Assembly: GCF_018977255.1 (NCBI RefSeq)
Contig: NW_024704756.1
Coordinates: forward strand, 17,174,001-17,238,000
Source of the DNA: Callorhinchus milii
Taxonomy: Eukaryota
DNA length: 64,000 nt
Reading direction: 5' to 3'
Each line of letters begins with the position of its first letter. Positions within the stretch are counted from its first letter, which is position 1. This document shows positions 17,701 through 38,700 of this stretch, in pieces. Made by a program: the position numbers.

Positions 17701-20700
17701 ATGTTTTTTTTCCACTGAATACATGTCGCAGTCCTCACCTGTCATGTTAGTTGCATGTGTGTGTGTGTGCGCTGTGTGAGTGCAGTATGTTTAAAGACAT
17801 AGTTTTTTTTTCCTGTTGCAACTGGTTCTAATTCGATCAGAGCAAAAGACAAAACGTCCGTGTGTTTTGAAAAGAGTGCACTACTCAATTCTAACCCAGA
17901 TAGTCAGCGATAAACAGCCAGAAACAGTATCTCAACCATGCCAATAGGACATGATTAAAAATACTGACACATCCTTGAAAATAAACACAGATTTACTTTA
18001 CAGCCTCAACATTGCTCAATGCCAAGATCCACGTGATGGTTTGGCTTTGTTCCACTGCTTTGGGCTCCCTCAAATCAAGAGTTTCTGCATTCTTTATTTC
18101 CCCCCCCCCCCCCAAGATGGATTCACAAGCAATCGCAGTCCCCTATCCCATATTTGGCTCTGCGCCACAGTAACATCTGTCAGGGGTGCAGGCAGAAAGC
18201 AAATCCTTGATCCTCTCATTAACCGAGGAGCAGAAACAGCAGCTCTTAGATAATAATCCTTGCATTTGATATCATGCTTTCAAGACATCTCAAAGCACTT
18301 CATAGGATAAACTAAATTGTCTGTATTTTGTAGACATTTATTTATGAAAACAAGGGAGTCAATTCTTTACTTCATGGGAAAGGTTGATCTGGATGTTCCT
18401 GCACATCTGTCCACAGCAGCAGCTTCCTGCCAGCTGATGGGAATGTGTTCCTCTTGGTTAACCCTTTAAATGCTGAGATGGTCCTTTTTTTCAGTTTAGG
18501 TCACCAAATTGAAAAGATGGCCCAATCTAAGGTCTCCTCCACAGCCCTGGTTAGAAACACAGTGGCCAGAGCTACAACAACAACTTGCATTTATATAGCA
18601 ACCTTCACGCAGGGTATCATCCCAGAGCTCCACAGTGTGGCCCCACCAACACACTCAGAGAGCCTTAGTGCCTGTGGCTTGCCAGTGGATTAGACTGCAT
18701 TCCAACAGGCAGTGACTCCATCTATTGGTGATGCCCTAAACTTCTTCCTGCAAATAAGAGAAATTCAGGCTGCATCCATCACACTTTAGTGTGCACATTC
18801 CTCCAACAACAACAACAACAACAAGATTCCATTTGTAGAGCGCCTTTCACGTCAGGAGGACGTCCCAAGGCGCTCCAACCCTTCCCCCTATAGGGTGGCA
18901 CCTCATGCTGGCTACCACCAGCCTCAGGCTTCCCTGTGTGAGCCCCAAACTACAATTGTGCTGGGAATGGAGGGCATACCCAAGAACCAATATAGTGTAC
19001 TCCACCAGGGGCACTGCAATTCATCCGTTTCCCTACACCATGAGGGAAAGTTCCTGCAGGACCTGCTCCATTAACCTCAGCACAAAAACAAACTATTAAA
19101 CCCAGTAACAGTTCAAGGCAACAATGGACAATTGGTCCATCAAGCAACTCAGCCAACCTCAACTGTGTCAATGAGCACAGTGTTACACTGGAAACAAGCA
19201 AACCTGGTTCCTGCAATCAAGAACAACCACACCCTTTGCCTTCAGACCTCAAACCTCTGGAAAACTACAGAACAATTGATCCAAAGAGAATGTATGACAA
19301 TAATGAGACAATACACCTTCTGCAGCTCAATCTCGCCCAACCAGCCCAGGTGGGCAAAGGCCAACACTTCTCCAGATGGGAGGAAGGATAAAACATTACA
19401 GAGGAAAAAACAAACTTTATTTCTTTATAACACACTTTTTGCACATTGCTTCAATTACAGTTATATTACTGGATCAATGACTGAGCATCAACGGTGATTA
19501 AGGTGGCAAAACCTCCTGTACAAAAGTGACCATTTTACAAGGATTTAGAATAAACCCTAATAGATCAGACAATGGCAGCCAGCAATCCCCCACACCCCCT
19601 AGAATTTATTCTCACACACACACACGTAACTCAGAAGCTGCAGACCACTCATGAGATATTGTTCCAGAAACAGACAGTGATTAGATAGAAGATTAACACG
19701 ACAAAGTGGGGCAGTTCTCATGCCTCAAGCTGCGGAAGCTTTGTCACAAAATTGAACTACAGGAGTCAGGAAATTCCCAATAAAATTCTGAAAAGAACCA
19801 GAGATGTGTCTGCAGGGAACGGTGTGGTTCCAGACTCCAGGTCGGCAGCTTTTACTCCTGTCCAACACAAAACATAGCAGGATCTCAGGGTTACAATCAA
19901 TACGGGATGACAGCACCCATAAGATGGAATAGGAGCCACAGCAAGACTCCATCCTTCTTGCCTTTTGTTGTACTCATTAACAGCCAAGTCACACACATAC
20001 ATCACTTGTAAATAAATCCCCACAGTGACACCAAGAGATGGCAGAGATTAGGTCCCTGGTCTGCACACTTGGACACCAAGTCCTCATCCTCAACACAAGC
20101 TCACAGAGCCTCCCCCAAGGCTGATTTTGTGCTTGTATTGAATATTTGGCTTCAGATTATCCAAGATCTCCCTGAACCTTCTCACTAGTGTGAACATTCC
20201 ACCCGCCCACAAACAAGCACACGTGACAGGCATTGTGAGGGACAGGGAGTACATGTACATACTTTGACCTTTGGCTTTGCACCAACGAGGCTTTCTGCCT
20301 TTGCCGCCAACCTCACATCACTTGATCTCCTTCCAGGCGGCATCTCTCCTGCAACACAAAAAACAATGTTAGTAGACAGAGGAGTGTGTGGGTGCGATAA
20401 AGCTTGCGAGGCGAGTGCTCTAACCACTGAGCTGCAGGACTGCACGGTCAGAAACACACAATTTACTACAGAACAAGACTGAGCTGAGGTCATGAGGTCA
20501 GCATGGATCCTGAGACAAATAACCCAATATATTTCATTAACTACATTAATCACATTCCGATCATTGGAAGCTAGGACCTCTCTCAAACTCTACCCTGGAA
20601 AGCAAGCTGAGGTGAGCATAGATTTGTGCTCACTGGTGCTTTGGGTTGGACACCGTTGGTCTTTATTAAATACATTCACCTTTCCTTATTTAAAAAGAAA

Positions 20701-35700: not shown

Positions 35701-38700
35701 AGTCAATTCACTTTACAGCATATTCTGTGAAGCGCTTTCAGATGTCGAGAAGACGTGAAAAGCGCTATATCAAATGCAAGGATTATTATTATTATAGTCA
35801 ATGGGAACTGATGAATAGGAATGATGAGATTGAGAGCTTGTATCTCGCCTGCCCTGCAGGGGCCTGAGGGATCTGTGGGTCCTGCCTTGTTGACGTGTGC
35901 TACGGATCCTCTGATTGAAGGCTGAACGAGCTGCTCCTTTGTTTCAGGAACGTCTGGCCCTGTCCAGCATCTGATGCAGGAAAATGCGGCCCTGAAGCAG
36001 GAGAACGCTGCCCTCCGCCAGCAGCAGACACAGTGCTGCACACACCTGGAGACCATCGCAGCCCTGTGCTCCCGGATAGCAGCTCTCGAGGGGGAGATAG
36101 CCTCCCCCTAGCCCCCCAGGCTAAGAACCACTCCCTCACTGGCTCTCCTCGCCCCACATTCCCTATATTGTCCAGACGAGAGTTTGATCCTGTTCCCGCA
36201 TCGCTCAGCCCTCACCGTGTCAGAACCCGCTATTTATGGTCTTGTCTGTCTATTTTATTTAAAGTTCTATTTAAAAAGCTGCTAACTGGTATTAATCTCT
36301 GAATGGCTCTCGCGTGTACTGCGTTGAGGCGTGTGTGTCTGTGTGTGTGATTGTTTTTAGGGGAGGGAAATTGTCTGTTTATAATCTTCCTCTGTGTCAG
36401 AAAGTGCTTCAGGCTGCTGAACTTTTATCTAACGGTACTGAGTGCAGATTTACCACCGACGCGATTTTACTCTGATTAAGCTCCGCTGATGTTCTCGTGT
36501 GCGTGCTTTTATAAGATTTCTGAATAAAGTCTTTTTAATATTCCACTGTTTCCCTGTAATCTGTCCGGCAATGTGTTGTTTCCCTGCCACGTTTACTTTG
36601 GCCACATTATCCTCTCTACAATATTGCACGGAAGAACTTGCTTTACACGTACCACCGGTAACGTCTCTGAGCGCCTCCTAAGTTTTCACGGTTTAAGCAA
36701 AGGCACTGCTTCGTGAGTAGATGGTCTCTGTACGTTACCGTGAGGTGAGTGAGGCCTCCAGCGCGCCAATGGCACAATGCGGCGCTCCGCACGCCTCGGT
36801 TTACCCGGCAATAAGTAGGAACAGGTTGTTAGCCGATTGGCGGATCACTTTTCCATGGATAATAATCCCTTCATTTTTTTTAAAAAAAAAGAAATTGGTC
36901 ACCTCAACCCACGGCTGTTTGCGGGGACGCTGCTCTGGGCACGATTGGCTGCCGTGTTTCGCCCACAAAACATAGTCACTACACTTTACGGTCTATTCTG
37001 TGAGGCGCTTTGAGACGCCTCGAAAACCCGATGAGAGCCGCTGCACCAAATGCCAGGATTATTATTTAGTGTCTGACTTTGCGCTGCTCCTCACATAATT
37101 CACAGTCACTACACTTTACACTGAATCCTGTAACTGCACTTTACATCTGCAAAGGACTATTATTGTGGTTATTCCGGTGACTGAGTGAGTGTGAGGCAGT
37201 GAGAGTGTGTGTGTCTGTCTGTGAGTGTGTGAGTGTGACAGTGAGTGTGTGTGTCTGTCTGTGACTGTGTGAGTGTGACAGTGAGTGTGTGTGACAGTCA
37301 GTGAGTGTGTGTGTGAGTGTGAGTCTGTGAGAGTGTGTGTGTCTGTCTGTGAGTGTGAGAGTGTGACAGTGAGTGTGTGTGTCTGTCTGTGACTGAGTGT
37401 GAGAGTGTGACAGTGAATGTGTGTGACAGTCAGTGAGTGTGTGTGTGTGTGTGAGTCAGTGCCGTGTGTAGAGTCTCCCACACCCGCTGCCGCCCGCAGG
37501 TGTCATTCCAGCCGGGGCTGTGTGAGCGGGAGGTCGGGGCTGTGTGAGGCCGGGGCCGGGGGGTGTGGGTGGGAGGCCGGGGCTGTGTGAGGCCGGGGCC
37601 GGGGGGGTGTGGGTGGGAGGCCGGGGCTGTGTGAGCGGAAGCCGGGGCCGGGCGGTGTAAGGCCGGGGCGGTGTGAGGCCGGGGCCGGGCAGTGTGGGGC
37701 CGGGGCCGGGCGGTGTGAGGGGGGGGTCGGGGCGGTGTGAGCGGGAGGCCGGGGCCGGGCGGTGTGAGGCCGGGGCGGGGCGGTGTAAGGCCGGGGCCGG
37801 GCGGTGTGAGCGGGAGGCCGGGGGGGCCGGGCAGTGTAAGGCCGGGGGCGGGGCGGTGTGAGGCCGGGGCCGGGCGGTGTGAGGTCGGGGCCTGGCGGTG
37901 TGAGCGGGGGGTCGGGGCGGCGCGATGCCGAAGGTGGTATCGCGGAGTGTGGTTTGCTCGGACACTCGGGACCGGGAGGAGTACGACGACGGCGAGAAGC
38001 CGCTGCACGTGTATTACTGTCTGTGCGGTCAGATGGTGCTGGTGCTCGGTAAGGAGAGGCCGAGCGGGCCCGAGCCTCGGGCTCCAGTACGACCTCCCCC
38101 GGGGGAGGAGCGCCCCCCCCCCCCCCCCCCGGGCCCTGGGGCTGAGGGGCTGCTCTGAGCTCAGCGGAGAGAGAGAGCGAGAGAGAGAGAGCGCTGTAAT
38201 GATATCACAGTCCAGACGTCTCAAAGCGCTTCACGGAATATACCGTAAAGTGTAGTGACTGTGTGTTTTGTGGGTGAAACACGGATTGTCGGAGAGGCCG
38301 TCCGTCAGGACCTGACGCGTTGATCCCCGAGAGTCTGCGGCTCCGTCGGGGAAAGGGACGGGAGTTTGCCTCCCGAGGCGCTGTGTGGATGCGAGTTGTT
38401 GTTGTTGTTGTTGCTGTGCGCCTCCTGTGACTGACGGCGAACCCCCCCCTCCCCTCTCCCCCCCCCACCCCCCCCGACCTTTCAGATTGTCACCTGGAGA
38501 AGCTGCCCATGAGACCCCAGGACCGCGCGCGCGTCATCGACGCCTCCAAACACGCTCACAAGTTCTGCAACATTGAGGAAGATGAGAGCGTGTACCTTCG
38601 GAGGTGAGGGTCCTGTTTCCTGGGGGTGGGGGGAGAGACGTGGGGCATTCATTGGGAGGGGGCTCTGGTGCAAGACTTGGGGTGGGGGTTCCTGCAAATG

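What the first reader, a model, noticed from the sequence alone, without database searches (positions are those of the whole stretch)
20185..36111. Head-to-head pair of diverged, unrecognised paralogues on one promoter
Seen: genes A (-) and B (+) diverge from ~28.2 kb and share an architecture. Each has one giant exon ending in E at phase 0. Each has a 151-bp phase 0->1 exon ending KPAGHGHL-G (A, 21616-21766) or KPAGSSHA-G (B, 33764-33914). A phase 1->1 exon of 144 or 141 bp follows, ending PKRFKMA-G or PKRSKLA-G, and the next exon starts GE in both. The giant exons share ordered motifs: RRFSS/RRFST, LDFFE..EWFPCRASTPL (A 23676-23708) vs LNCFE..EWIPCFMSTPL (B 32785-32817), GARRK, and G[LV]PKP. 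The rest does not align by eye. Inference: an old inverted duplication of a fast-evolving gene, with both copies kept intact and possibly co-regulated. I recognise no named family.
Basis: partly seen in the sequence, partly recalled or inferred. Interest (0 to 1): 0.8.

Follow-up and report, generated by a model that had tools for sequence, protein, structure and literature searches.

The report
Head-to-head pair of unnamed disordered-protein genes
Two old, strongly diverged copies of one vertebrate gene lie head to head and probably share a promoter; they encode long, mostly unfolded, probably nuclear proteins of no family I could name, which is moderately interesting rather than surprising.

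Summary
Gene A (-) and gene B (+) each have a giant open exon of 719 and 1206 codons. No ORF in 100 block-shuffled windows was as long (max 531). Both giant exons end in phase 0. A 151-bp exon (phase 0->1) and a 144- or 141-bp exon (1->1) follow, all with canonical splice sites.

The giant exons are homologous. Smith-Waterman score is 105 against 51±7 for shuffles, reached by 0 of 500. BLASTP gives E=8e-5. There is no DNA-level exon similarity, so the duplication is old.

New here:
- A has a candidate 5' coding exon, with its ATG at 28200 in a strong Kozak context and phase-0 donors. It lies about 160-320 bp from the candidate donors of B's non-coding first exon, around a CCAAT box.
- B alone has six tandem repeats of about 75 aa.
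- B alone has a C-terminal zipper exon, modelled as a parallel homodimer.
- The conserved block is predicted to be disordered.

Pfam, PDB sequences and the ESM Atlas name no family. Function is inferred: nuclear disordered scaffolds carrying short docking motifs.

The parts
28141..28200 (-). Gene A, candidate first coding exon. The ATG is at 28200 and 20 codons run to a phase-0 donor. A second phase-0 donor lies after 28081.
   Evidence: Kozak context GCCGCCATGC. Donors TCA|gtgagg after 28141 and GGA|gtgagt after 28081 are both phase 0 and fit the phase-0 acceptor at 25388. This is a model only. One search lists other, weaker mini-ORFs with donors.
23232..25388 (-). Gene A giant exon, 2157 bp, 719 codons, phase 0->0
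   Evidence: ORF; splice sites. There is no in-frame ATG before codon ~178, so an upstream start exon is needed.
24579..24708 (-). Perfect in-frame tandem repeat of 33 bp x 3.9 (11 aa) inside A's giant exon
   Evidence: Tandem Repeats Finder: 100% matches, score 260
23232..24155 (-). A: the conserved C-terminal block of the giant exon. It holds the EW.PC..STPL motif at 23676-23708, then GARRK and GLPKP.
21616..21766 (-). Gene A 151-bp exon, phase 0->1, ends KPAG..H
20766..20909 (-). Gene A 144-bp exon, phase 1->1, ends in the PKR.K.A motif
20185..20348 (-). Gene A last recognised exon; it starts GE. Either it reads through to the TAG at 20185-20187, or it is spliced at AAA|gtatgt after 20263 (86 bp, phase 1->0).
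   Evidence: No zipper-like ORF lies downstream as far as the OPHN1-like start near 16.1 kb. The first AATAAA on this strand is at 19610.
28100..28370 (.). Candidate shared, bidirectional promoter
   Evidence: CCAAT at 28258, ATTGG at 28126, GGGCGG at 28144, no TATA box. For 28201-28400, GC is 0.60 and CpG o/e is 0.78. Inference only; no transcript data.
28201..28521 (+). Interval that must hold gene B's non-coding first exon. Candidate donors lie at 28363, 28368, 28488 and 28522.
   Evidence: Read. The only + strand ATG here, at 28199, opens a 12-codon ORF that ends in a stop.
29707..33324 (+). Gene B giant exon, 3618 bp. The ATG is at 29713 in context ACCATGA, giving 1204 codons from the ATG. 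The exon ends in phase 0.
30895..32238 (+). B only: six tandem repeats of 64-85 aa, with degenerate units on both sides
   Evidence: Self-comparison with E down to 7e-19. Alignments: 25-54% identity to unit 5. dN/dS is below 1 in 15 of 15 unit pairs. A repeat HMM finds nothing in A.
32374..33324 (+). B: the conserved C-terminal block of the giant exon. It holds the EW.PC..STPL motif at 32785-32817, then GARRK and GVPKP.
   Evidence: AlphaFold2 mean pLDDT is 30.6.
33764..33914 (+). Gene B 151-bp exon, phase 0->1, ends KPAG..H
34363..34503 (+). Gene B 141-bp exon, phase 1->1, ends in the PKR.K.A motif
34863..34975 (+). Gene B 113-bp exon, starts GE, phase 1->0
35391..35433 (+). Gene B candidate 43-bp exon, phase 0->1. 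It is needed to put the last exon in the zipper frame.
   Evidence: AG/GT sites and phase. Model only.
35948..36111 (+). Gene B last exon: a 53-aa leucine zipper followed by the stop codon. AATAAA lies at 36523.
   Evidence: Pfam finds only generic zipper matches below cut-off. A parallel in-register homodimer was modelled.

Best explanation
Shown or close to shown: A and B are two intact protein-coding genes that descend from one old inverted duplication. They share:
- a giant exon that closes in phase 0;
- a 151-bp exon;
- a ~144-bp exon;
- a GE-starting exon;
- a ~320-aa block at the end of the giant exon that is 25-30% identical.

Inferred for gene structure: both giant exons are second exons. 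A is read from an ATG exon at about 28.2 kb and B from a non-coding exon a few hundred bases away on the other strand. One CCAAT-type, TATA-less, bidirectional promoter would then drive both.

Inferred for function, with low confidence: the products are long, intrinsically disordered, probably nuclear proteins that work through short linear motifs rather than folds. The motifs kept in both copies are:
- a basophilic-kinase site, RRFS[ST];
- an EW.PC..STPL block whose S-T-P core fits a proline-directed phosphosite and Polo-box docking pattern;
- basic K-R-x-K clusters of the nuclear-localisation type.

B has added two devices for multivalency. One is an array of six ~75-aa repeats, each with one predicted short helix. 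The other is a C-terminal leucine zipper that makes it a parallel homodimer. A has neither, so it would be a monovalent relative that could share partners with B or compete for them.
For: Coding and intact:
- ORFs of 762 and 1247 codons against a maximum of 531 in 100 block-shuffled windows.
- Canonical AG/GT sites and consistent phases through all modelled exons.

Paralogy:
- Smith-Waterman 105, reached by 0 of 500 shuffles in both global and block shuffling.
- BLASTP E=8e-5.
- tblastn against the whole window finds only the reciprocal match.
- Equal 151-bp exons and matching phases.
- Identities anchored at the exon ends, reached together in 0 of 100000 shuffles.

Old duplication:
- None of the 14 DNA-level matches between the loci lies in an exon.
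- pS is 0.69.

Promoter:
- ATG at 28200 in GCCGCCATGC with phase-0 donors.
- CCAAT at 28258.
- CpG o/e 0.78 at 28201-28400.

Disorder:
- Aromatic residues are 3.5% and 3.2%.
- AlphaFold2 gives mean pLDDT 30.6 for the conserved block, with 0 of 317 residues at 50 or more.
- The repeat unit gives 53.9, with one helix at residues 16-33.
- Both alignments behind these models are very shallow.

Repeats under constraint:
- dN/dS is 0.18-0.73 in 15 of 15 unit pairs.
- This is biased downwards, because the pairs were aligned as protein.

Zipper:
- Two copies of the last exon score 0.32 against a best control of 0.00.
- That mark was reached by 21 of 30 proteins solved as pairs of one chain and by 0 of 23 solved as single chains. 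On eukaryotes it was reached by 17 of 29.
- The runs agree in 100% of contacts and the partner's pLDDT is at least 84.
- The contacts are in register, in an a/d heptad pattern.
Against: - No transcript, CAGE or cross-species data were available. The first exons of both genes, B's 43-bp exon and A's 3' end are therefore models.
- A CpG-rich patch (o/e 1.07 at 25401-25600) with a CCAAT sequence lies just upstream of A's giant exon. It could be A's own promoter.
- One search lists other ATG-plus-donor mini-ORFs that would also fit the acceptor.
- The motif readings (kinase site, Polo-box docking, NLS) come from recalled consensus patterns. An S-T-P triplet is common in Ser/Thr/Pro-rich sequence: A has 1 and B has 2.
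- The zipper pass may reflect the model's memory of the many solved coiled coils. The tool says such a pass shows likeness, not binding.
- The low pLDDT values come from alignments of 2 and 6 rows and may understate structure.
- The third pair of small exons shows no sequence similarity (3435 of 5000 shuffles reach its score).
Confidence: 0.6

Rival explanations
1. The pair belongs to a vertebrate gene family that already has a name but no Pfam model and no solved structure. 'Unrecognised' would then only reflect the libraries I could use. This rival concerns novelty, not structure, and is compatible with the best explanation.
For: - Only Pfam, PDB sequences and the ESM Atlas could be asked.
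- The Atlas's first hit for A is an unnamed chordate cluster of 98 members at 0.81. That could be the family's own cluster, although a third of shuffled proteins reach such a score.
- Disordered proteins often lack Pfam models.
Against: - No library hit reached its threshold.
- I could recall no family with these motifs and this exon plan; that is memory, not a test.
- Two literature searches returned nothing relevant (listings only).
Confidence: 0.4
2. The genes do not share a promoter. A starts at its own CpG-rich promoter directly upstream of its giant exon, at about 25.4-25.7 kb. It would then be translated from the first in-frame Met, about 178 codons in, or from another small exon.
For: - CpG o/e is 1.07 at 25401-25600.
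- The sequence ggaccaatcacc lies near 25540.
- One search lists alternative mini-ORFs with donors at 25.8-26.8 kb.
Against: - The ORF stays open for ~178 codons upstream of that Met.
- That stretch holds the RRFS motif, which B has in its translated N-terminal part.
- Seven minus-strand ATGs with short ORFs lie between 25659 and 25410. They would act as upstream ORFs.
- The ATG at 28200 has by far the best start context.
Confidence: 0.25
3. Gene A is a decaying or truncated copy, a young pseudogene or a non-functional relic. Only B is a working gene.
For: - A lacks the repeat array and the zipper.
- It has no start codon in its giant exon.
- Its 3' end is unclear.
- It carries a perfectly homogeneous 33-bp repeat, which is a recent change.
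Against: - The ORF of 719 codons is intact although synonymous sites are saturated since the duplication.
- All four modelled splice junctions are canonical, with phases preserved.
- The 33-bp repeat is in frame.
Confidence: 0.1
4. The A-B resemblance is compositional or convergent, between two unrelated Ser/Pro/Leu-rich ORFs, and not homology.
For: - Both are low in complexity.
- Exact shared 4-mers and their order are only weakly above shuffles: reached by 17 and 85 of 1000.
- The small exons are marginal by sequence.
Against: - Block shuffles that keep local composition never reach the observed score (0 of 500).
- BLASTP with composition adjustment gives E=8e-5.
- The exon lengths are identical at 151 bp, the phases are identical and the motifs sit at the same exon ends.
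Confidence: 0.03

Closest known systems
Head-to-head vertebrate gene pairs on CCAAT-type, TATA-less bidirectional promoters (recalled general class)
   Same: Opposite strands. Candidate first exons lie a few hundred bases apart. A CCAAT box sits between them, the stretch is CpG-enriched and there is no TATA box.
   Different: Here the two partners are paralogues of each other. The 5' ends are modelled, not measured.
Long isoforms of TSC22-domain genes (giant 5' exon, then small exons ending in a leucine zipper; layout recalled)
   Same: A giant disordered 5' exon followed by a short C-terminal zipper exon in B. Pfam TSC22 gives a weak match to the zipper heptads.
   Different: The match is 19.6 bits against a cut-off of 30 and covers profile positions 24-44 only. 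The TSC box is absent. A has no zipper.
Giant-exon repeat scaffolds of the cell-division machinery, such as KNL1 or Ki-67 (recalled)
   Same: One very large exon encodes a disordered array of ~70-120-aa repeats that carry short docking motifs, with basic or phospho-motifs at the ends.
   Different: No sequence relation was found. The folded end domains of those proteins are absent from the exons scanned. The resemblance is one of design only.
NCKAP5 / NCKAP5L (PF15246)
   Same: A chordate disordered protein with a giant exon. It was the second Atlas hit for A.
   Different: The Atlas score of 0.75 is in the range that shuffled proteins reach. Pfam found no NCKAP5 match in either giant exon.

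Membership tests
Paralogous gene pair (A with B) | Sequence similarity beyond chance | tested here: met
   Smith-Waterman 105, reached by 0 of 500 global shuffles and 0 of 500 block shuffles. BLASTP E=8e-5.
Paralogous gene pair (A with B) | Shared exon lengths and intron phases | tested here: met
   Giant exon phase 0->0. Exons of 151 and 151 bp, phase 0->1. Exons of 144 and 141 bp, phase 1->1. The next exon starts GE, phase 1->0 if A's GTATGT donor is used.
Bidirectional-promoter gene pair | Transcription starts on opposite strands less than 1 kb apart | tested here: inconclusive
   The sequence models put A's ATG exon at 28141-28200 and B's first-exon donors at 28363-28522. No transcript or CAGE data exist. 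An alternative promoter patch lies at 25.4-25.6 kb.
Bidirectional-promoter gene pair | CpG-rich, TATA-less, CCAAT-containing shared region (recalled typical features) | tested here: met
   CCAAT at 28258, ATTGG at 28126, GGGCGG at 28144, no TATA box. GC is 0.60 and CpG o/e is 0.78 at 28201-28400. The enrichment is moderate.
TSC22 domain family (PF01166) | TSC box followed by a leucine zipper, scoring at or above Pfam's cut-off | tested here: not met
   19.6 bits against a cut-off of 30. Only profile positions 24-44 of 57 match, and those are the zipper.
bZIP transcription factors (PF07716) | A basic DNA-binding region directly N-terminal to the zipper | tested here: not met
   19.6 bits against a cut-off of 22.3. 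Only profile positions 34-54 of 54 match, and those are the zipper.
NCKAP5 family (PF15246) | NCKAP5 C-terminal domain | tested here: not met
   No Pfam match at E<=1 in either giant exon. The Atlas score is 0.75.
Parallel dimeric leucine zipper (B's last exon) | Heptad a/d core and in-register self-association | tested here: met
   In the model only. Score 0.32 against a best control of 0.00. The mark was reached by 21 of 30 solved one-chain pairs and 0 of 23 single chains. Contacts agree 100% between runs and pLDDT is at least 84. Residue i touches residue i. The pass may come from memory of solved coiled coils.
Polo-box-domain docking site (S-[pS/pT]-P; recalled consensus) | S-T-P core kept in both paralogues; phosphorylation-dependent binding | not testable with these tools
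   The pattern is present at 23676-23708 and 32785-32817. Binding and phosphorylation were not tested.

The most novel reading that the evidence does not exclude
A and B are a vertebrate gene family with no named member, kept in the region that corresponds to the mammalian X-linked OPHN1 neighbourhood. One promoter would deliver two antagonistic forms of one disordered scaffold: a dimeric, six-fold multivalent form (B) and a monovalent form without a zipper (A). B could also make its own zipper-less form by skipping its 43-bp exon.
Probability: 0.2. Interest if true: 0.55.

Novelty: new member of a known kind. Interest (0 to 1): 0.35.

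Why it matters
If the pair is truly unnamed, it adds a family of long disordered proteins to the vertebrate gene list. It would also be a clean natural case in which duplication separated a dimeric, repeat-expanded scaffold from a simple monovalent copy while keeping both under one promoter. 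That is useful for studying how multivalency evolves in disordered proteins. If it proves to be a known but Pfam-less gene, the value is only in annotation: exon models, the missing first exon of A, and the B-specific repeats and zipper.

Tried and rejected
- **Pfam, giant and small exons.** For B, only DUF424 at 16.2 bits, below its cut-off of 25. For A's 151-bp exon, only RDM at 13.1 bits, below its cut-off of 27. All matches to B's last exon were generic coiled coils below cut-off. A's 144-bp exon gave nothing.
- **PDB sequence searches.**
  - B's giant exon: 0 hits.
  - A's giant exon: one irrelevant hit at E=0.11.
  - The A+B profile: one hit at E=0.18 (uS15).
  - The zipper exon: 22 hits, mostly designed or generic coiled coils, best E=0.0027.
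- **ESM Atlas.** The best scores were 0.84 (B) and 0.81 (A), both unnamed clusters, and 0.75 for NCKAP5. All are below the 0.9 lead level.
- **Fold search.** Not run. Both models were of low confidence (pLDDT 30.6 and 53.9), and the tool states that matches to such models are meaningless.
- **B-repeat HMM against A.** A was not reported at all. The best of 200 shuffled A sequences scored 1.9 bits. I therefore dropped my reading by eye that A holds one repeat unit.
- **A zipper exon for A.** None was found among minus-strand ORFs of 30 codons or more between 12.5 and 20.3 kb, nor among the tblastn matches to B's last exons.
- **Shared SINE as a remnant of the duplication.** Rejected. The exons show no DNA-level similarity, while the two SINE copies are 78.6% identical, and the family has many copies of 67-85% identity in the window.
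- **Transposon origin of the giant ORFs.** Rejected. There are no other copies in the window and no transposase domains.
- **Literature.** Two searches, seen as listings only, returned nothing relevant. No paper was read.
- **Left unchecked.** The bacterial and archaeal genome collection and the phage, plasmid and E. coli collections were not searched, since they cannot hold a vertebrate gene.

Full report
**Setting**

The window is vertebrate and I do not take it for human. An OPHN1-like gene lies on the minus strand from 1 to about 16.2 kb. Its RhoGAP and BAR_3 exons and its start exon near 16.1 kb appear. On the plus strand are:
- a STEEP1-domain gene at about 39.5-40.7 kb;
- an HSF-type DNA-binding gene at about 42-47.6 kb;
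- a Rab-effector-like gene at about 59.5-63 kb.

All of these are packed into 64 kb among tRNA-derived SINEs. As far as I recall, the gene order is not the human one. Two N runs at 7037-7340 and 8213-8348 were left alone.

**Working rule**

Every search, fold and alignment was done exon by exon.

**The observation**

The two giant ORFs are real: 762 and 1247 codons from stop to stop. They are the longest in the window and exceed every one of 100 block-shuffled windows, whose maximum was 531.

| Exon | Gene A (-) | Gene B (+) | Phase |
|---|---|---|---|
| giant | 23232-25388 | 29707-33324 | 0->0 |
| 151 bp | 21616-21766 | 33764-33914 | 0->1 |
| 144 / 141 bp | 20766-20909 | 34363-34503 | 1->1 |
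| starts GE | from 20348 | 34863-34975 | 1->0 (A only if spliced after 20263) |

The translations and motif coordinates match the finding exactly.

**Is the likeness more than chance?**

Yes, for the giant exons.
- Smith-Waterman 105 is reached by 0 of 500 global shuffles (51±7) and by 0 of 500 block shuffles (56±10, max 100).
- BLASTP gives E=8e-5.
- tblastn against the whole window returns only the reciprocal match.

The signal lies in the last ~320 aa, at 25-30% identity. The N-terminal halves are weaker: their score is reached by 1 of 500 shuffles.

The small exons are marginal by free local alignment. Their identities, however, sit at the same exon ends, a result reached together in 0 of 100000 shuffles (with a window chosen post hoc). 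Counting exact shared 4-mers, which is what the eye does, is only weakly above chance.

At the DNA level, all 14 matches between the two loci fall in introns or the intergenic stretch and none in exons. Most of them lie in SINE copies seen elsewhere in the window. Synonymous sites are saturated. The duplication is therefore old and the likeness is held at protein level.

1. A's giant exon has no in-frame ATG for about 178 codons and opens with a good acceptor. On the minus strand at 28200 there is an ATG in GCCGCCATGC, followed by phase-0 donors after 28141 and 28081. Either fits the acceptor at 25388.
2. B's ATG at 29713 lies 6 bases inside its giant exon, which also opens with an acceptor. 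Several donors lie at 28363-28522 downstream of a CCAAT box at 28258.
3. Both giant exons are therefore probably second exons, and the two first exons would lie within a few hundred bases of each other. This supports the shared-promoter idea without showing it. A second CpG-rich patch directly upstream of A's giant exon is the main rival.
4. B holds six clear tandem repeats of 64-85 aa at 30895-32238.
   - dN/dS is below 1 in 15 of 15 unit pairs. This is biased downwards by aligning as protein.
   - An HMM of the repeats finds nothing in A.
5. B continues through a 43-bp exon to a last exon that is a 53-aa leucine zipper.
   - Two copies of it are modelled as a parallel, in-register dimer. The score is 0.32 against a best control of 0.00.
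   - The mark was reached by 21 of 30 proteins solved as one-chain pairs and by 0 of 23 solved as single chains.
   - Contacts agree 100% between runs and pLDDT is at least 84.
   - The pass may reflect the model's memory of solved coiled coils.
6. A has no such exon before the OPHN1-like promoter. It either ends at the TAG at 20185 or its 3' end is unresolved.
7. By my reading of the frames, skipping B's 43-bp exon would stop translation 8 codons into the last exon. B could therefore also make a zipper-less form.
8. A carries a perfect in-frame 33-bp x 3.9 repeat.

**What they are**

No library named them.
- Pfam has nothing at or above cut-off.
- PDB sequences give nothing, and the zipper matches mainly designed coiled coils.
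- The ESM Atlas gives 0.84 and 0.81 to unnamed clusters and 0.75 to NCKAP5. All are in the range that shuffled sequences reach.

The conserved block is modelled as disordered: mean pLDDT 30.6, with no residue at 50 or above. The repeat unit is modelled as one short helix in otherwise uncertain chain, at pLDDT 53.9. Both models rest on very shallow alignments. Aromatic residues are about 3%.

**How they most likely work (inference)**

They are probably long disordered proteins acting through short motifs kept in both copies:
- RRFS[ST], a basophilic-kinase pattern;
- EW.PC..STPL, whose S-T-P core fits a proline-directed phosphosite and the recalled Polo-box docking pattern;
- GARRK and PKR.K.A, basic clusters of the nuclear-localisation type.

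B adds multivalency through its repeats and dimerisation through its zipper. A is the plain copy. A role as a phosphorylation-regulated nuclear scaffold, in dividing or germ cells, is my best guess, and I hold it at low confidence. The consensus patterns are recalled, not tested.

**Comparison and novelty**

In design, B resembles giant-exon repeat scaffolds and the layout of TSC22 long isoforms. It fails the membership tests for TSC22, bZIP and NCKAP5.

The arrangement is a known kind: head-to-head paralogues on a CCAAT-type promoter. Whether the family is unnamed could not be tested. Two literature searches, seen as listings only, gave nothing. No paper was read and no supplement was seen.

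I rate it a real, well-described gene pair of moderate interest (0.35). It would rise if exon-wise searches show an old family without a name.

Noticed in passing
21856-22050 (-) and 33449-33643 (+): Copies of the same SINE family sit in the same orientation upstream of the 151-bp exon in both genes, about 90 bp upstream in A and 120 bp in B. They are 78.6% identical over 201 bp and are each other's best or near-best match in the window. The exons share no DNA-level similarity, so the insertions look independent. The coincidence is unexplained.
   Followed up: partly
35486-35557 (+) and 57474-57546 (-): tRNA-like hits. The first is tRNA-Ala (tgc) at 52 bits and lies in B's intron before the zipper exon; the second scores 33 bits. 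A SINE body flanks them, so they are probably heads of a tRNA-derived SINE rather than working tRNA genes.
   Followed up: partly
24579-24708: Perfect in-frame tandem repeat of 33 bp x 3.9 (an 11-aa unit) in A's giant exon. 100% identity implies a very recent expansion.
   Followed up: yes
35971-36014: A 21-bp x 2.1 repeat inside B's zipper exon, which is a duplicated heptad.
   Followed up: no
35391-35433 and 35948-36111: If the 43-bp exon is skipped, the last exon is read in a frame that stops after 8 codons. Alternative splicing could therefore switch B's zipper on or off. This is inferred from the frames.
   Followed up: no
16200-17100 (-): A GA-rich low-complexity block (GGRERGG-type when translated) lies directly upstream of the OPHN1-like start codon, with strong GC and AT skew.
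   Followed up: no
51791-52642 (+): A 284-codon ORF with a weak DDE_3 transposase match (19.5 bits, below its cut-off of 28.6). It is probably a transposon remnant between the HSF-like and Rab-effector-like genes.
   Followed up: no
41991-47672 (+); 59527-63051 (+): An HSF-type DNA-binding gene and a gene with a Rab-effector N-terminal region (weak FYVE_2 match) follow the STEEP1-like gene. As I recall, this order differs from the human X chromosome.
   Followed up: partly
1712-2033, 10174-10365, 14029-14240, 52922-53341: The same minisatellite, which translates as a repeated ~18-aa unit, recurs at four or more places in the window on both strands.
   Followed up: no
8638-9831, 16118-17329, 42582-44012: Skewed low-complexity stretches give stop-free frames of about 400-480 codons that are not genes. 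This is why shuffled controls reach 531 codons.
   Followed up: no
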